NCBI GenBank assembly: GCA_963840455.1 | Contig: CAWIYV010000011.1 | Span: forward strand, 800,001 to 864,000 | DNA from: Nitrospirota bacterium | GTDB taxonomy: Bacteria > Nitrospirota > UBA9217 | Reading direction: 5' to 3' | Length of the DNA: 64,000 nt | Part shown: positions 23,337-28,478 of the stretch, in pieces | Layout of the letters: each line of letters begins with the position of its first letter | Numbering within the stretch: the first letter of the stretch is position 1 | The notes under the pieces: model-generated | Told to the model about the DNA's origin: nothing | Database searches by the model: none | What the model saw: the letters and a program-made list of their open reading frames with translations, nothing else | Made by a program: the position numbers and the translations under genes

Positions 23337-24644
23337 TCAGATCCCCGTAGCGAGGGTCTTGAAATAGGTGACGACATCAATGGCAAACGGTTTGATGCAG
23401 TTGTCGTGCGTTGTTGTCAATGTTCCGGCATTGCAATTAACCACCGTCACCATGGTCGATCCGTTGCTGTCCATGGCGGCCTTGGCGGTCGTCGTGTTGG
23501 CATAGGGGACGACGTCGTCGTTTTGACCCTGGAACAGGCGCGTGGTGACGGCAGGCGCCCAGTTATAGATGTCGTTTTCGGCAATATGCGCCTTGAGCGC
23601 GGTCTCGCCCGTCCCCAGGTAGCTCGCAAGGAACACGGGGTTGAACAGTGCGCCCGTCATGACATTCGACCCCCCGAGATCAGCAGTGATCTGGCTTCTG
23701 CTGTAGTTCCCTCCGAAATGGGTAGCTACGACAGGCGCGTAAGTGAGGGAGAAGTAATACGCAAGCTGGCTCGACGGGTTGTAAAGGGAGTCGTAGGCTG
23801 CGAAAAAGAATCCGGCAAACGCGGGCTGCGGCTGCGACGCAAGCCCCAGGATGGTTTTGGTCGTGCTCGACAGGTCATAGGGGCCTGCGCCGGGCTCCGA
23901 AGCGGTGATGGGAAACTCGGCGCTCAGGCTTTGCTCCATCGATCGCTGCGTGGCAAGCGTTGCGTACCCTCCCTCGGAATAGCCCGCGAGAAACAGCTGG
24001 CCGTTCGTCACCGCGTTGATGCCCGGTTCCTTGAAAAATACGCGCGCGGCACGGTTCATGTCAATGCTTGCGGACGCGAGCATGGCGGCATGAACATAGG
24101 GGTGCAGCAGGGCTGACGAATCGCCGTAACCGATATAGTCGGGCATCACCGCGATGTATCCGATCGCCGCGAAGACCGCGCCCACCAGGCTCTCGGCGCT
24201 TGTGGGAAAACTGGAGGGCGCATCGGAATCCTGCAAAATCGTTCCGTGCTGGTAGCTCAACACCGGGCTACCTCCGCTCCGGGCGGCGGGCAGGCAGACG
24301 AGCCCTGAAGCATTGATGAGTGCGGCCGAGGCGTCCGGTGTTTTATAGGTAAGCTTGTAACAGGACACATCGGACAACGCGGTAAACCCGATCATCCCCG
24401 CGGACGCGATCAACGCATCCAGGGAAGCCGCATTGAGCGTTCCGGCCTTTGACCACGAAACGAGATCTCCCGCCGCAGCAGGCCCAGCAGGCGTCGAGCT
24501 GCCGGAGTTGCTGCCGCAGGAAAAAAATAGTCCAGTTGCAAGCAGGAGGGCAAGAAGTCGAAGGAACAGAGTGCGCATTGTCAGTTTATGTTCATGGTGT
24601 TGCATCAGGTCATTCATGGTTCCATCTCCCAGGATCATGATCAT
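23337..24644 (-). CDS. secreted lipase / alpha-beta hydrolase lipoprotein
   Basis: Lipobox FSC, YQHGT, PDYIGYG, nucleophile elbow GYSEGG, D..VP, C-terminal His. Confidence 0.85.
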   Translation of the reverse strand: MIMILGDGTMNDLMQHHEHKLTMRTLFLRLLALLLATGLFFSCGSNSGSSTPAGPAAAGDLVSWSKAGTLNAASLDALIASAGMIGFTALSDVSCYKLTYKTPDASAALINASGLVCLPAARSGGSPVLSYQHGTILQDSDAPSSFPTSAESLVGAVFAAIGYIAVMPDYIGYGDSSALLHPYVHAAMLASASIDMNRAARVFFKEPGINAVTNGQLFLAGYSEGGYATLATQRSMEQSLSAEFPITASEPGAGPYDLSSTTKTILGLASQPQPAFAGFFFAAYDSLYNPSSQLAYYFSLTYAPVVATHFGGNYSRSQITADLGGSNVMTGALFNPVFLASYLGTGETALKAHIAENDIYNWAPAVTTRLFQGQNDDVVPYANTTTAKAAMDSNGSTMVTVVNCNAGTLTTTHDNCIKPFAIDVVTYFKTLATGI

Positions 24645-24841
24645 CAGGCAGCCGTTTTTTCCTCGTTTCGCCTCTCTATCAAAGGGTAGCCCTGTCGGAT
24701 GCAGGTGTCAACAGCTGCTCAGCTGTTCTTTTTCAGCCCTGTATCAAGTATAGCAGGGCCGGGAGCACAGAGGTTTGTGTGTTTGTTGTTCGTGCGCTGC
24801 GCCGAAGCATGGGTTTGTGTCATCCGTGCTGCAATACAAGC

Positions 24842-25105
24842 ATGAACAGACCGACCTTGGTAAGCCTCCTCATGATCGCCGGGCTCTCTGTTCTGGCGCA
24901 GGATGCCCATGCTCATCAACCAAGGATCGTGACCGGAGAACACGTCACGCTTGTCGAAGCGCCCGAGATCTCGAAAGCGTATTACGGCGAACTGACCGGC
25001 AAGCCGGACCTGTTCGTGGTGGAGCGTGACAAGCAATGGGACCTCTTTGTCGAGATCCTGGTCCCGGACCTGCCGGGAGTGCAGGAAGACAAGTCCTCTC
25101 CATAG
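24842..25105 (+). pseudogene. truncated exported protein fragment
   Basis: Signal peptide (AHA-HQPR), EISKAYYGELTG, ILVPDLPG, then stops; an unrelated TM tail follows in another frame to 25266. Confidence 0.45.
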
Positions 25106-25412
25106 AGCTTGAGGAACAGGTGAAGAAACGCGTCATCGCTCAAGGGCTAAGCAGGAACATGACAGGACTGTTCCTGCTCGGGCTGATGCTGGTAATTCTG
25201 GCGATGATACTTGGTATCGTGTATGGAGGGAGAAGCATTAAGCAGAGGTTCAGGAAAGCTCAATAGGTAGGTAATGCCAACCGAAAAGTCCTGATAATCA
25301 TATAAAGGGCACCTCCCTTGTTCTTCCTACGTTGAGCGAACCGGCCAAATGACACTAAAGTATTAACGCGTCTGTCGGTTCTCGTTTCCTTCCCTCGCTT
25401 CAAGATCATCGG

Positions 25413-25437
25413 TTGACAAAATGTGGTATACTATAAT
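25413..25437 (+). promoter_or_regulatory. sigma70-like promoter elements upstream of the candidate ncRNA
   Basis: TTGACA (25413), extended -10 TGgTATACT (25424-25432), TATAAT (25432-25437); -35/-10 spacing is short (13 bp). Confidence 0.6.
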
Positions 25438-25438
25438 C

Positions 25439-25739
25439 AGGCGTTGCGGACTGGCACTGAGAAGTGTCAACCGTATCATCAACTGCCGTTGAGGGCACTA
25501 TAAGCGCCAACCGGGCGTGATTCGGGATCGGCATACAGCAGTCCGTGAGGGCTGTTAAACCGCCGGTTCGTAGATCACCAATGGCTGGAAAGCAGGTAGC
25601 CCCTGAGGTCAAAGGAGAATTCAGTAAAGGGAACGAACCGCTTCAGGATTTGCAGGAGCTAAGCACGGAAGTGATCGTTGATCTTACTGAATATCCCGAG
25701 GTTCAACGGAATGATCAGGATACGGTCAAAGCAACGCCT
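25439..25739 (+). ncRNA. candidate large structured non-coding RNA (~300 nt), family not recognised
   Basis: Closing helix AGGCGTTGC/GCAACGCCT, four more nested long-range helices, two GNRA hairpins, promoter-like and terminator signals. Confidence 0.7.
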
Positions 25740-25753
25740 TATTTGTCAAAAAC

Positions 25754-25790
25754 AAAAGCCGGCAGGGTTGATACCCCTGCCGGCTTTTTT
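25754..25790 (+). terminator. intrinsic terminator
   Basis: AAAAGCCGGCAGGG-ttgatac-CCCTGCCGGCTTTTTT. Confidence 0.9.
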
Positions 25791-26297
25791 CGTTCCCTCA
25801 TCAGAGCACGCTTCTCGACCGCATGCAGGATCATGAACCTTTGGCGGGAGAAGTTCTGGAATAGGAATCGCAACTGCGCAACGGCTGCAGCCGCCTCCCC
25901 CTCACGTGCGTTTCAAGAATCGGCAAGGTGATTGAAAACCCCTGCAGCAAGCTGCAGGGAATGCGCTCGCTCCTGGATTCAGGACACGAAGGGGAGGTGC
26001 AAAAAAGAGCTCTCGATACACGCTCTTTGTCACCTTTCTTGCATGCCCAAGAAAGTGACCCAAAGAAAGGCACCCGACGAAAATTCTTCACGGCATGTTC
26101 GGTCGTCCTCAGTACATTTCGGAAACTTGCCCTTCGGGCTTCGGACATCCGAAATGTTTAACCCTCGTCCTCTGTCGCCTGCCTAAATTTTCGTATGAGA
26201 CTGCTCTAGATCCTAGGTTTTCTCAAAGGTGAAGGGCTGATCGATCCCGGGGAAATGCTACAATATCAGAAAAGGCACCGTATCCTGGCAAAGGATA

Positions 26298-27545
26298 TTG
26301 CAGACCAAAGCAAAGGAGACCCTGACCGACTCATCCCAGATGTTTCTCAGGAAGAACGTCAGGGGAACGATGGAACAAAACGCCTCCGGGACCCTGGTCC
26401 GGAATGTCATGCTTGAATTTGCCGATCTCACCGGACTCGTATCTCCGCGGGAAGCGCCGCGGCGCTACTTATGGACGGACGCTTTTGCCGTCTGCAACTT
26501 CCTGGAACTCTATCGTCAAACGCATGATGAACACTTCAAGCAGCTCGCCCTGCACCTCGTCGATCAGGTCCATCACGTTCTCGGACGGCACCGTGACGAT
26601 GACCCGCGGACCGGCTGGCTCAGCGGTCTCGATGAACAGGGGGGCGCACTACACCCCACACGAGGCGGGCTACGGATCGGCAAGGAAATGAACGAACGCA
26701 GACCCGATGAATTTTATGACGAACAGGGGGAATGGGACCGGGACGGACAGTACTATCATTACCTCACGAAATGGATGCACGCGCTCGATCGGGCAAGCCG
26801 GGTCACCGGAGATCCGACGTACTGGAGATGGGCGATCGAGCTTGCGAAAACGGCTCATGCACGGTTTACCTACGCGACCTCACCAGGCCGCGCGAAACGC
26901 ATGTACTGGAAAATGAGCATCGACCTCTCCTATCCGCTCGTAGCATCGATGGGGCATCACGATCCTCTCGATGGATTCATCACCTATCTCCAGCTTCAGG
27001 CGACTGCGGCAAAAACTTCCGGGAACTCCGCAGGGCTCGACCTCAGCGCCGAGATTGCAGACATGGCTGTTCTGTGTGAAGGGAAAAGCTGGGAAACCGA
27101 TGACCCCCTTGGCGTCGGCGAGCTTCTGAGCAACGCATACAAACTGGCTCACTTGATCCTGATCGAAGGCCTTGAGCAGTCCGATCTTCTGGACGATCTC
27201 CTGGGTTCTTCCCTGGTCAGTCTGCAATCCGACGCGAGCAGGGACTTCCTGAAGTTTCCTGCTCAATACCGGCTTGCATTTCGGGAGCTGGGATTGTCCA
27301 TTGGATTACATGCACTGGAGAAGTTGGCGGGACTGATGCAACAAACTCCGCGCGATTTCAGTATGAAACGTCGTCTGCGTTCGCGAACCGAACGCCTGAT
27401 GCAGTATATACCTCTCCGGGAGAGCATCGAGACCTATTGGCTTGCCCCCGCAAACAGACAAGCGGACGAATGGATGGCGCATCGTGACATCAACATGGTC
27501 ATGCTGGCAACCAGCCTGGCCCCCGAGGGGTATCTCTCCCCGTGA
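26298..27545 (+). CDS. conserved hypothetical protein (start probably ATG ~26370)
   Basis: Long ORF with conserved-looking motifs RRYLWTDAFAVC, DGQYYHYLTKWM, RLAFRELGL, H.DIN.VMLATSL. Confidence 0.8.
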   Translation: MQTKAKETLTDSSQMFLRKNVRGTMEQNASGTLVRNVMLEFADLTGLVSPREAPRRYLWTDAFAVCNFLELYRQTHDEHFKQLALHLVDQVHHVLGRHRDDDPRTGWLSGLDEQGGALHPTRGGLRIGKEMNERRPDEFYDEQGEWDRDGQYYHYLTKWMHALDRASRVTGDPTYWRWAIELAKTAHARFTYATSPGRAKRMYWKMSIDLSYPLVASMGHHDPLDGFITYLQLQATAAKTSGNSAGLDLSAEIADMAVLCEGKSWETDDPLGVGELLSNAYKLAHLILIEGLEQSDLLDDLLGSSLVSLQSDASRDFLKFPAQYRLAFRELGLSIGLHALEKLAGLMQQTPRDFSMKRRLRSRTERLMQYIPLRESIETYWLAPANRQADEWMAHRDINMVMLATSLAPEGYLSP

Positions 27546-27696: not shown

Positions 27697-28290
27697 TTAG
27701 TGCATGTGCTCGTGCATCGGCATGTCCTTCTTTTCTGCATCGCTGCACCTCATGCCGCAGCCAGCGCCGCCACCCGCTGCCATCATCTCCTTTAACCGTT
27801 TCCTCTGATCGGGCGTCAGTATGGACTTCATCTCTTCACGTGCCTTGAGGTGAGCAAGGAACATCCCCGTTTTGAGGGACTCCTTCTTTTTCACCGCAGC
27901 CTCCACTGCCTTCATGTCCACAGGGTCCTTGTCGAGGAGGTCTTTAAGCTCGATATCGGCGATCTGTTTATCCGCCCTCTTTCTGACCATGTCCTTCACG
28001 GTCTTGCTGCGAAGTGTCTGGAGCGCCTCTTTCTGCTTATCGTCGAGACCGAGACCCATAAGGTGTTTCCACAGGGGGTGGTCGTTATCCATCATCATTC
28101 CGCCGTCCTGCATGCCGCCCATTCCGTGCATCATGCCCATGCAATGATGTCCCATTCCGCCCATCATGGCGCCTTCATGCATGCCCCCGCCTTTTTCGCC
28201 CATGCAGCCGCACATCTGTGCCTGCGCGGTCGAGACCAACGTCGCTGCAAAAATCAATCCGAACAATATACTTGCCAAGCTTCTTCGCAT
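27697..28290 (-). CDS. Spy/CpxP-family periplasmic protein, Met/His/Cys-rich
   Basis: Signal peptide, LGLDDKQ and ILTPDQR (LTxxQ) motifs; RBS AGGAGG. Confidence 0.85.
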   Translation of the reverse strand: MRRSLASILFGLIFAATLVSTAQAQMCGCMGEKGGGMHEGAMMGGMGHHCMGMMHGMGGMQDGGMMMDNDHPLWKHLMGLGLDDKQKEALQTLRSKTVKDMVRKRADKQIADIELKDLLDKDPVDMKAVEAAVKKKESLKTGMFLAHLKAREEMKSILTPDQRKRLKEMMAAGGGAGCGMRCSDAEKKDMPMHEHMH

Positions 28291-28478
28291 ACTGACACCT
28301 CCTGTCGATTTAGTCGTACATGAAATCAATGATAGCAGAGAGAGGAGGCAAATACAACCCGCCTCGGTGACGGCACAAACGAGAGTTCAACGCAACCGTG
28401 CCAAGCGGTGCTGTCGGGATCTTGAGGCTGCCGGAGCCTTCAAGCCGCGATCTTCCCTTCGCGCCCGTATCCCGGCCG

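What the first reader, a model, noticed from the sequence alone, without database searches (positions are those of the whole stretch)
25413..25790. Stand-alone ~300-nt highly structured RNA gene of unrecognised family
Seen, nested helices: AGGCGTTGC 25439-47 / GCAACGCCT 25731-39; ACCGTATC 25470-77 / GATACGGT 25719-26; CCGTTGA 25486-92 / TCAACGG 25703-09; TCGGGAT 25522-28 / ATCCCGA 25693-99; ATTCAGTAA 25619-27 / TTACTGAAT 25684-92. GNRA hairpins: TGGCACT-GAGA-AGTGTCA (25452-69) and AGCAGTCC-GTGA-GGGCTGTT (25537-56), whose G-U pairs work on the + strand. Crossing complementarities (CGGTTCGT 25564-71 / ACGAACCG 25633-40; CCTGAGG/CTTCAGG; GATCAC/GTGATC) suggest pseudoknots or an alternative fold. 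Promoter elements sit just upstream and a strong terminator 15 nt downstream, with no credible ORF between. Hallmarks of RNase P, SRP, tmRNA, 6S and group II intron domain V are absent. Inference: a large ncRNA, possibly a new class.
Basis: partly seen in the sequence, partly recalled or inferred. Interest (0 to 1): 0.85.

Follow-up and report, generated by a model that had tools for sequence, protein, structure and literature searches.

The report
New structured RNA gene family in Nitrospira
This is a real, expressed, roughly 300-base folded RNA gene that matches no catalogued RNA family, and it is an extra copy of an RNA found in nearly every genome of the nitrite-oxidising Nitrospira lineage, so it looks like an unrecognised lineage-wide RNA of unknown job.

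Summary
Window 25439-25741 (+) folds far better than shuffles (z -5.4). It has a conserved extended -10 promoter ending 7 nt before its first base and a strong terminator 15 nt after it.

It matches none of 4227 Rfam families. The genome has its normal 6S, RNase P, tmRNA and SRP RNAs elsewhere.

A covariance model finds full-length relatives in 63 of 64 genomes of the window's class (32 of 32 good-quality ones), 1-5 copies each. It finds none in 123 genomes of 21 other families of the phylum. All 11 confirmed hits in named records are Nitrospirota/Nitrospiria MAGs.

On unfitted MAFFT alignments the fold shows strong compensatory change: 80-87% of cells paired, against 32-43% with slid partners.

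TCGGGAT/ATCCCGA is not supported.

Metatranscriptome contigs from four studies cover only 25451-25734, not the flanks.

The window copy is an accessory paralog. The conserved core copy sits beside a TrpE/PabB-like gene.

Function is unknown. The best guess is a stable trans-acting, protein-binding RNA clamped by a near-invariant terminal helix. I found no paper describing it.

The parts
25334..25412 (+). About 80-nt block conserved upstream of window-type ('type A') copies in otherwise unrelated contexts. Role unknown (regulatory DNA?).
   Evidence: Alignment of the flanks of 15 type-A loci. Similarity starts about 105 nt before the RNA and is lost further upstream. The small minus-strand ORF 25260-25409 is not conserved as an ORF.
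25413..25418 (+). TTGACA hexamer. It looks like a -35 element but lies only 8 nt from the conserved -10.
   Evidence: Sequence. Present in many but not all copies. Not called as a promoter by the consensus scan.
25424..25432 (+). Extended -10 promoter element (TGnTATAnT), ending 7 nt before the RNA's first base.
   Evidence: Sequence. In the rows visible in the partly cut listing of the 102 copies, a TGTGGTATAnT/TGTGCTATAnT motif precedes the copy in most rows. The function is inferred and not tested.
25439..25741 (+). Body of the ncRNA (303 nt). It is an accessory 'type A' member of the family.
   Evidence: Covariance-model match 274.5 bits, model positions 1-307. Fold z -5.37. RNA-library contigs lie within 25451-25734.
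25439..25447 (+). P1 5' strand. It pairs with 25731-25739. The terminal clamp is nearly invariant in sequence across the family.
   Evidence: 95.4% paired in A7. 93.9% paired in the 46-sequence A5, where 3 of 10 pairs never vary.
25453..25468 (+). P2 hairpin (GGCACU / GAGA loop / AGUGUC).
   Evidence: 84.1% paired, 3 pairs changed on both sides. In A5 helix 4, 5 of 5 pairs changed on both sides.
25472..25492 (+). P3 5' strand.
   Evidence: 20 pairs, 88.6% paired, 10 pairs changed on both sides. Coordinates.
25493..25602 (+). Domain I: P4 (25493-96/25599-602), P5 (25504-05/25592-93 and 25508-12/25583-87), P6-P7 (25517-32/25562-78) and the P8 hairpin (25537-44/25549-56, GUGA loop).
   Evidence: Helices 5-9 are 75-87.5% paired, with 2-8 pairs each changed on both sides. 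Domain I is shortened in the 233-253-nt variants.
25608..25702 (+).
   Evidence: Helices 10-15 are 81-98% paired. Strong covariation in the P12/P13 equivalents in A5 (helices 18-19).
25703..25739 (+). 3' strands of P3 and P1. One RNA-library contig ends at 25734 and is followed by 24 letters unlike the window, which I recognise from memory as sequencing adapter.
   Evidence: tables 7 and 8 (X6 record 7).
25754..25790 (+). Intrinsic terminator: stem 25758-67/25775-84, 7-nt loop, T6. It is flanked by an A-run, so it could act in both directions.
   Evidence: Conserved after type-A copies in other genomes.
25791..25825 (+). Short block conserved after the terminator of type-A copies.
   Evidence: Alignment of downstream flanks. 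Similarity is lost after about 40 nt in most loci.

Best explanation
SHOWN.
- 25439-25741 (+) is an independently transcribed, highly structured, non-coding RNA gene of about 300 nt.
- It belongs to a previously uncatalogued RNA family found in essentially every genome of the window's class. Named relatives are all Nitrospirota/Nitrospiria.
- Each genome has a 'core' copy next to a divergently oriented TrpE/PabB-like gene. Many genomes add 1-4 accessory copies elsewhere or in tandem.
- The window copy is such an accessory paralog, about 42% identical to this genome's own core copy.
- The fold is a two-domain multi-helix structure. It is closed by a long P3 helix and by a terminal P1 helix made from the very 5' and 3' ends. 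P1's sequence is almost invariant while the rest diverges.

INFERRED.
- Transcription starts at the first P1 base from an extended -10 promoter.
- Transcription stops at the downstream terminator, and the tail is probably trimmed back to P1. This would give a stable RNA with both ends buried.

MOST LIKELY MECHANISM (inference, about 40-45%). The RNA acts in trans as a protein-binding or RNP-scaffold regulatory RNA. The conserved P1/P3 core and junction nucleotides would be recognised by a lineage-specific partner. The variable domain I and the paralogs would tune or diversify that interaction. This would work like 6S or Y RNAs without the RNA being a member of either family.
For: Structure.
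- Fold z -5.37 on + against -3.47 on -.
- On unfitted MAFFT alignments the consensus fold is 79.8% paired against 32-43% for slid partners. 77 pairs change on both sides, against 48-59 slid and 55 shuffled. Covariation is 0.275 against <=0.103. 0 of 500 shuffles reach it (A5, 46 sequences under 80% identical).
- On 24 type-A sequences it is 87.1% paired against 33-41%.
- Many G-U pairs occur on the + strand.

Distribution.
- 63 of 64 genomes of the class have a match. That is 32 of 32 of those at least 90% complete and at most 5% contaminated, and 19 of 19 genera. Copy number is 1-5 per genome (the same 64 genomes).
- 27 of 27 class genomes against 0 of 123 in 21 other families of the phylum.
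- 11 of 80 pattern hits in named records pass the model, and all 11 are Nitrospirota/Nitrospiria/Nitrospiraceae.

Gene anatomy.
- In the visible rows (partly cut output), an extended -10 motif precedes most copies. It lies 7-9 nt before P1 in the accessory copies I read.
- A conserved terminator follows type-A copies.

Expression.
- 12 runs on record as RNA hold 31-45% of sampled words.
- Contigs of 4 of 4 laid metatranscriptome runs from 4 studies lie only within 25451-25734, with zero cover in 25200-25442 and 25740-26000.
- Two contigs are identical to the window over 218 and 171 nt.
- One contig ends at 25734 and runs on into 24 non-window letters that I recognise from memory as sequencing adapter.

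Not coding. The window's ORF frame is open in 4 of 24 homologs.

Not a known RNA. Rfam gives 0 hits. 6S, RNase P, tmRNA and SRP RNAs are elsewhere in the genome.

Core locus. 63 of 102 copies lie within 2 kb of the TrpE/PabB-like gene on the opposite strand.

Modularity. Short variants keep P1-P3 and domain II and shorten domain I.
Against: - No partner protein is identified and no conserved neighbouring gene suggests one. The trans-acting protein-binding mechanism rests on analogy only.
- The two obvious partner families are not found in this 100%-complete genome: TROVE/Ro and CsrA.
- RNA evidence comes from assembled contigs. These cannot give strand, true ends or abundance, and DNA contamination of RNA libraries cannot be fully excluded. 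The uncovered flanks argue against contamination.
- Core copies have a co-directional gene 30-340 nt downstream and usually no separate terminator. This leaves room for a cis role for those copies.
- The structure was derived from the same sequences it was counted on, which favours it over slid controls (tool caveat).
- A full-structure covariance model could not be built, so no structure-aware realignment or R-scape-type statistic was obtained.
Confidence: 0.6

Rival explanations
1. Architectural or catalytic large RNA. The complex, multi-junction fold serves its own function, such as self-assembly into a multimer or a ribozyme activity. It would not be a protein-sequestering regulator.
For: There are about 13 helices in two domains. 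The window copy has three GNRA-type hairpin loops (GAGA at 25459-62, GUGA at 25545-48). Near-invariant junction nucleotides occur among copies only about 40% identical. The RNA is retained across the whole lineage. No partner gene was found. From recall: some large orphan bacterial RNAs were recently reported to form homo-oligomers.
Against: No test bears on assembly or catalysis. At about 300 nt it is smaller than most such RNAs. Domain I is dispensable in the short variants. The paralog expansion looks more like regulatory RNAs.
Confidence: 0.17
2. Cis-acting leader (riboswitch-like sensor). A P1-closed aptamer followed by a terminator controls read-through into the downstream gene.
For: A multi-helix junction closed by P1 and followed 15 nt later by an intrinsic terminator is the classic layout of a transcriptional riboswitch. 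Core copies always have a co-directional downstream gene, glgC or a 4HBT thioesterase plus a methyltransferase. Core copies mostly lack a separate terminator.
Against: Downstream genes are unrelated between genera (glgC against thioesterase). Accessory copies share no downstream gene: 14 type-A loci and 39 accessory copies, where the best recurrence is 4-5 loci, mostly upstream. In the window the next + strand ORF starts about 500 nt after the terminator. By eye I saw no antiterminator complementarity between the P1 3' strand and the terminator 5' arm. RNA contigs stop within the element. Tandem arrays of up to three copies are atypical for leaders.
Confidence: 0.1
3. RNA part of a mobile or defence element, such as a guide RNA of a transposon nuclease or recombinase, or a retron-type template RNA. 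This would explain the multiple copies at variable loci.
For: There are 39 of 102 copies outside the core locus, without shared neighbours. Type-A copies carry about 105 nt of upstream and about 40 nt of downstream conserved flanks with fairly sharp borders. Tandem clusters occur.
Against: The core copy is syntenic across 19 genera. The window's flanking ORFs show no nuclease, recombinase or reverse-transcriptase domain; there is one weak Peptidase_S9 hit and otherwise none. blastn finds no match in 72,556 plasmid or 50,697 phage records. 0 of 11 pattern hits in viral contigs pass the model. I noticed no terminal inverted repeats and did not search for them systematically.
Confidence: 0.06
4. 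Not an RNA gene. It would be a small protein-coding gene or a DNA-level repeat that happens to be self-complementary.
For: ORFs overlap the element in the window: 25545-25931 (+, 128 aa) and 25406-25612 (-, 68 aa). Several homologs have long stop-free frames.
Against: The frame is open in only 4 of 24 homologs, and a GTG or ATG stands at the start position in 7 of 24. The best frames differ in strand and frame and give unrelated peptides. Compensatory base-pair changes and G-U pairs are specific to the + strand. The promoter and terminator bracket the structure.
Confidence: 0.02

Closest known systems
6S RNA (Rfam RF00013)
   Same: It is a stand-alone, abundant, stable bacterial RNA whose 5' and 3' ends pair. 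It is lineage-wide and sometimes has paralogs. Presumably it acts in trans on a protein.
   Different: There is no model match at E<=10. A canonical 6S is elsewhere in the genome at 86.5 bits. This RNA is about 300 nt with two branched domains. From recall, 6S is a roughly 185-nt rod with a central bubble.
Y RNA / YrlA with the Ro (Rsr) protein
   Same: A terminal helix formed by the two ends is conserved in sequence and not just in pairing. Internal modules are variable, and there are multiple paralogs. The Y RNA features are from recall.
   Different: No TROVE-domain protein is found in this 100%-complete genome. There is no Rfam match. I recognised no tRNA-like module.
Orphan large structured bacterial RNAs found by comparative genomics (OLE, ROOL, GOLLD, raiA motif, HEARO; all in Rfam)
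   Same: It is a lineage-restricted, intricately folded stand-alone RNA with strong covariation and no known function.
   Different: It matches none of their models. It is restricted to one class of Nitrospirota in the genomes searched. It is smaller than OLE, ROOL and GOLLD (sizes from recall). It is not linked to phage or mobile DNA.
CsrB/RsmZ-type sponge RNAs
   Same: They are multi-copy, independently transcribed regulatory RNAs with their own terminators. One neighbour of the core copy is glgC, which from recall is a classic Csr target.
   Different: No CsrA gene is found. GGA is not enriched: mean 7.9 per RNA, shuffle z 0.17, n=91. The fold is one nested architecture, not a string of GGA hairpins.
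Transcriptional riboswitches
   Same: The layout is a P1-closed multi-helix junction followed by an intrinsic terminator.
   Different: No gene class is conserved downstream. Tandem copies occur. RNA contigs are confined to the element.

Membership tests
6S RNA (RF00013) | Match to the family covariance model. | tested here: not met
   No match in the window at gathering or at E<=10 in 25300-25900. The genome's 6S is at contig 7, 28855-29031, 86.5 bits.
RNase P RNA (RF00010) | Match to the family model. Normally one essential copy per genome. | tested here: not met
   No match here. A canonical copy is at contig 11, 742801-743169, 279.9 bits.
tmRNA (RF00023) | tRNA-like ends plus a tag reading frame, detected by Rfam and ARAGORN. 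| tested here: not met
   ARAGORN finds 0 genes in 24800-26300. Rfam finds none. A canonical tmRNA is at contig 11, 703275-703624, 200 bits.
SRP RNA (RF00169) | Match to the family model. | tested here: not met
   None here. A canonical copy is at contig 10, 448447-448545, 74.3 bits.
Y RNA / YrlA | Co-occurrence with a Ro/Rsr (TROVE domain) protein. | tested here: not met
   PF05731 gives 0 matches in G000 (100% complete). The control search hit Deinococcus and Bacteroides.
CsrB/RsmZ-type sponge | A CsrA/RsmA protein present in the genome. | tested here: not met
   PF02599 gives 0 matches in G000. The control search hit E. coli, B. subtilis and Thermotoga.
CsrB/RsmZ-type sponge | Many GGA motifs, enriched and exposed in hairpin loops. 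| tested here: not met
   Mean 7.9 GGA per RNA, shuffle z 0.17, over 91 full-length copies. In the window, 10 GGA, most with at least one base inside a helix of the model.
Riboswitch / cis-regulatory leader | Consistent position upstream of a functionally coherent gene set. | tested here: not met
   Core copies sit upstream of glgC in some genera and of a thioesterase plus methyltransferase in others. Accessory copies have no shared downstream gene.
Riboswitch / cis-regulatory leader | Ligand-dependent switch between terminator and antiterminator. | not testable with these tools
   Needs in-line probing or Term-seq. By eye I saw no antiterminator pairing.
Transposon or retron guide/template RNAs (omega RNA, bridge RNA, msr-msd) | Adjacent TnpB, IscB, IS110 recombinase or reverse-transcriptase gene. 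| tested here: not met
   The flanking ORFs 23337-24644 and 26298-27545 have no such Pfam or NCBIfam domain. The core copy's neighbours are TrpE/PabB-like and glgC.
OLE / ROOL / GOLLD / raiA / HEARO and all other Rfam 15 families | Match to the family covariance model. | tested here: not met
   0 matches at gathering in the window and in 7 paralog loci. 0 matches at E<=1 in 3 loci holding core and short variants.

The most novel reading that the evidence does not exclude
This is a previously undescribed class of large structured RNA that all Nitrospiria carry alongside 6S, RNase P, tmRNA and SRP RNA. Nitrospiria are the main nitrite oxidisers and complete ammonia oxidisers of soils, waters and treatment plants. 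The RNA would be a lineage-defining housekeeping or regulatory RNP component, or an RNA with its own catalytic or architectural function. Its paralog families (types A and B and the short form) would give condition-specific variants.
Probability: 0.5. Interest if true: 0.85.

Novelty: categorically new. Interest (0 to 1): 0.8.

Why it matters
Large, intricately folded bacterial RNAs conserved across a whole lineage are rare. Those understood so far proved to be ribozymes, RNP cores or global regulators.

This one is present in 63 of 64 species-level genomes of a class that, by its named relatives, is Nitrospira-like. That group drives a key step of the global nitrogen cycle and of wastewater treatment. 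It is hard to grow and almost untouched by RNA biology.

The RNA is assembled from very small environmental metatranscriptomes. That fits high abundance but does not measure it.

It offers a concrete new handle on Nitrospira physiology. It is also a clean, covariation-rich target for structure determination and partner discovery. It could serve as a sequence marker for Nitrospiria activity in metatranscriptomes.

Caveat on the 'categorically new' rating. The general kind, an orphan structured ncRNA, is familiar. What is new is the family itself, which shows no relation to any catalogued one. Its function is unknown.

Tried and rejected
Known RNA families.
- Rfam gathering scan of the whole window: 0 hits.
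- Permissive scan of 25300-25900: only terminator-like noise.
- 7 paralog loci at gathering: 0 hits.
- 3 loci at E<=1: 0 hits.

Partners and motifs.
- Y-RNA idea rejected: no TROVE protein.
- CsrB-like idea rejected: no CsrA and no GGA enrichment.

Coding. Rejected. The small minus-strand ORF 25260-25409 is not conserved as an ORF.

Mobile, phage or plasmid origin.
- blastn against plasmids and phages gave no match.
- The pattern scan of viral contigs gave 11 stretches, none of which passes the model.

Wider distribution.
69 of the 80 were chance hits in GC-rich genomes. My chance estimate of about 8 was too low.
- In another class of the phylum (family f10), TrpE/PabB orthologs were found in 27 of 28 genomes. 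No model match at E<=10 lay beside 11 of the 20 fetched loci. The other 9 loci were not searched.

Leader/trailer helix beyond P1. Across 62 core copies it was not better than shuffles (mean z -0.23, 7 with z<-2). A clear, compensated extension exists in the window's own genus and close kin (L016, L043, L046, L058, L106, L194).

Structure transfer. Mapping the mixed-type consensus (A5) onto the window gave register errors. I therefore used a type-A-only alignment.

Literature. Seven full-text searches and passages of PMC11271001 (the only hit was a reference-list entry) gave nothing on this RNA. Papers were seen as search listings and abstracts only. Supplementary tables of Nitrospira transcriptome papers, which might list such an intergenic transcript, could not be seen.

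Redundant searches. The 'order' and 'class' searches covered the same 64 genomes as 'family'.
Full report
1. WHAT IS IN THE SEQUENCE.

The + strand 25436-25745 folds to -118 kcal/mol against -92.7 +/- 4.7 for 100 dinucleotide shuffles (z -5.37, none as good). The reverse complement gives z -3.47.

The element begins with A25439. Seven bases upstream ends a TGnTATAnT extended -10 motif (25424-25432). The TTGACA at 25413-18 is only 8 nt from that -10, so it is not a canonical -35, and the consensus promoter scan did not call this site.

Fifteen to nineteen bases after the last paired base lies a 10-bp G+C-rich stem-loop followed by T6 (25758-25790).

2. NOT A KNOWN RNA.

- cmscan of the whole window against 4227 Rfam families: nothing at gathering thresholds.
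- At E<=10 in 25300-25900: only hairpin-type noise starting at 25674 or later, mostly on the terminator.
- The genome holds standard 6S, RNase P, tmRNA and SRP RNAs elsewhere.
- ARAGORN finds no tRNA or tmRNA in 24800-26300.
- Loci with paralogs also give no Rfam hit.

3. RELATIVES.

BLAST in 61 related genomes found 12 with a match. The matches include full-length copies at 66-86% identity, partial copies, and some hits only to the terminator region.

An nhmmer profile then revealed a second, diverged full-length copy in the window's own genome (contig 11, 290826-291128) and three tandem copies in another genome.

A covariance model (R1; 307 positions, only 35 base pairs, so mostly a sequence model) gave these results:
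- Matches in 63 of 64 genomes of the window's family. That is 32 of 32 of those at least 90% complete and at most 5% contaminated, and 19 of 19 genera, with 1-5 matches each. The one genome without a match is 68% complete.
- The order and class contain the same 64 genomes.
- In an even sample of the phylum, 27 of 27 genomes of this family matched, and 0 of 123 from 21 other families did.
- An exact-pattern scan of 185,579 species genomes returned 118 stretches, 80 listed. 11 of the 80 pass R1, and all 11 are titled Nitrospirota, Nitrospiria or Nitrospiraceae. The other 69 are chance hits.

From this I infer that the window comes from a Nitrospira-like (class Nitrospiria) organism.

Beside TrpE/PabB orthologs of another class of the phylum (found in 27 of 28 genomes), no match appeared at E<=10 in 11 of the 20 fetched loci.

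4. FAMILY ANATOMY.

Over 97 held sources the model finds 102 copies. Most are 292-320 nt. About ten are 233-253 nt.

Sixty-three of the 102 lie within 2 kb of a divergently oriented chorismate-binding enzyme gene (Pfam Chorismate_bind plus Anth_synt_I_N, closest to TrpE/PabB). This is the core locus. In it the RNA is followed, on the same strand, by glgC or by a 4HBT thioesterase plus a small methyltransferase.

The other 39 copies, including the window's, are accessory. They share no consistent neighbours.

Window-type ('type A') copies carry about 105 nt of conserved upstream and about 40 nt of conserved downstream flank. Beyond these the loci differ.

In the visible rows, whose output was partly cut, most copies are preceded by the TGTGsTATAnT motif.
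- In accessory copies it ends 7-9 nt before P1.
- In core copies it lies about 60-70 nt upstream, followed by a conserved GATCTTTGAAA-like motif.
- Core copies end in P1 plus a U-run, usually without a separate hairpin.

Short variants keep P1-P3 and domain II but have a reduced domain I.

The window copy is about 42% identical to its genome's core copy.

5. STRUCTURE AND COVARIATION.

On a plain MAFFT alignment of 46 representatives under 80% identical (A5), I used a structure derived from averaged base-pair probabilities (98 pairs, 19 helices):
- 79.8% of cells are paired, against 32-43% when partners are slid by 1-3 columns.
- 77 pairs change on both sides (48-59 slid; 55.3 in shuffles).
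- 377 cells are doubly changed (112-174 slid).
- Covariation score 0.275 (<=0.103 slid).
- 0 of 500 shuffles reach any observed value.

On 24 type-A sequences (A7), the type-specific nested model (99 pairs) is 87.1% paired against 33-41% slid. 50 pairs change on both sides, against 25-36 slid.

Caveat: the structure was derived from these same sequences, and the sequences are related.

The window model is:
- P1: 25439-47/25731-39.
- P2 hairpin: 25453-58/25463-68.
- P3, long and interrupted: 25472-92/25703-23.
- Domain I: P4 25493-96/25599-602, P5, P6-7 25517-32/25562-78, P8 hairpin 25537-44/25549-56.
- Domain II: P9, P10 25620-26/25685-91, P11 25633-40/25672-78, P12 25641-44/25668-71, P13 hairpin 25648-53/25658-63.

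P1 is conserved in sequence, not only in pairing: 3 of its pairs never vary among 46 sequences. Frequent G-U pairs fit the + strand only.

- H1, H3, H5 and both hairpins are supported.
- H2 is half supported.
- H4 is not: 58.4% paired, with better partners for both strands.
- The crossing pairings reach 67-80% but compete with nested helices at 81-87%.

7. EXPRESSION.

Twenty public runs hold part of the stretch, 12 of them on record as RNA, from 13 studies.

I laid contigs from four metatranscriptome runs of four studies on 25200-26000:
- They cover only 25451-25734. All bins from 25200 to 25442 and from 25740 to 26000 read zero in all four runs.
- Two contigs match the window exactly (218 and 171 nt). 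Others are relatives.
- One contig ends at 25734 and runs on into 24 non-window letters that I recognise from memory as sequencing adapter.

Contigs cannot show strand, true ends or level. The runs are small (45-136 million letters), which fits an abundant RNA but does not measure abundance.

8. NOT CODING, NOT MOBILE.

- The window's 128-aa frame is open to the RNA end in 4 of 24 homologs. Longest frames vary in strand and frame.
- No match in plasmid or phage collections.
- 0 of 11 viral-contig pattern hits pass the model.
- The window's flanking ORFs have no transposase, nuclease or reverse-transcriptase domain.

9. HOW IT PROBABLY WORKS.

Shown: an independently promoted, terminated, structured and expressed RNA of a lineage-wide family.

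Inferred: transcription starts at the first P1 base, and the 3' tail is trimmed to P1. This would give a molecule with both ends locked in a near-invariant helix.

Most likely (about 40-45%): it acts in trans by binding a lineage-specific protein or complex through the invariant P1/P3 core and junctions. Paralogs and the variable domain I would diversify that action.

The partner is unknown. TROVE/Ro and CsrA are not found in this genome, and GGA motifs are not enriched.

Rivals: an RNA-only architectural or catalytic role (about 17%), a cis-acting leader (about 10%), a mobile-element RNA (about 6%), coding or a DNA repeat (about 2%).

10. NOVELTY.

Seven full-text searches and one paper's passages gave no description of this RNA. 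Supplements could not be read, and subscription journals are mostly outside the library.

On this evidence the RNA is a new RNA family. Its kind, an orphan structured ncRNA, is familiar. Its identity is not.

Noticed in passing
G000 contig 11, 290826-291128 (+) = L016:2327-2629: This is the genome's own core copy of the family (183.9 bits). It lies about 125 nt from a divergent TrpE/PabB-like gene and about 120 nt upstream of glgC. Its leader and trailer form an extra helix of about 16 bp directly extending P1, with compensatory changes in related genomes.
   Followed up: partly
L013 (G006 contig 90), minus strand 1500-1805, 1895-2206, 2376-2692; also L182, L209, L218: Tandem arrays of two or three diverged copies sit at the core locus. 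They are spaced by about 90-170 nt, and each copy has its own extended -10 motif.
   Followed up: partly
L219, L222, L223, L225, L227, L228, L230, L233: These are short (233-253 nt) family members. P1-P3 and domain II are kept and domain I is replaced by a smaller hairpin. Each has its own promoter motif 7 nt upstream, and most are followed by a strong terminator.
   Followed up: partly
window 25334-25412 and 25791-25825: Flank blocks are conserved around type-A copies in different genera and contexts. The upstream block overlaps a minus-strand reading frame (25260-25409) whose start and stop are not conserved. The purpose of the blocks is unknown.
   Followed up: partly
Core-type copies, e.g. 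L037, L083, L031 (alignment A5 columns about 124-132 and 352-360): The conserved 9-nt loop of the domain-I hairpin in core copies contains GUUGAG, complementary to the conserved CUCAAC just 5' of the P3 3' strand. In type-A copies the hairpin has a GNRA loop instead, and GUUGAG sits in the P3 5' strand. This may be a loop-helix swap or a pseudoknot. The variants seen are compatible through wobble pairs but do not prove it.
   Followed up: partly
window 27697-28329 (-): A 210-aa protein has an LTXXQ/Spy-like domain (Pfam LTXXQ and Metal_resist). It follows a signal-like N-terminus and a Met/His/Gly-rich stretch, which suggests a periplasmic metal-stress chaperone.
   Followed up: no
window 25754-25790: The terminator is flanked by an A-run and a T-run, so it could also end the convergent minus-strand ORF 25831-26148. 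The scan tool called it on the minus strand only.
   Followed up: no
L018, L023, L026, L178, L224 (flanks of accessory copies): A phosphoribosyltransferase-like ORF recurs next to 5 of the 39 accessory copies. This label is my reading of the peptide and was not checked with a family search. It is the only neighbour shared by more than 4 loci.
   Followed up: no
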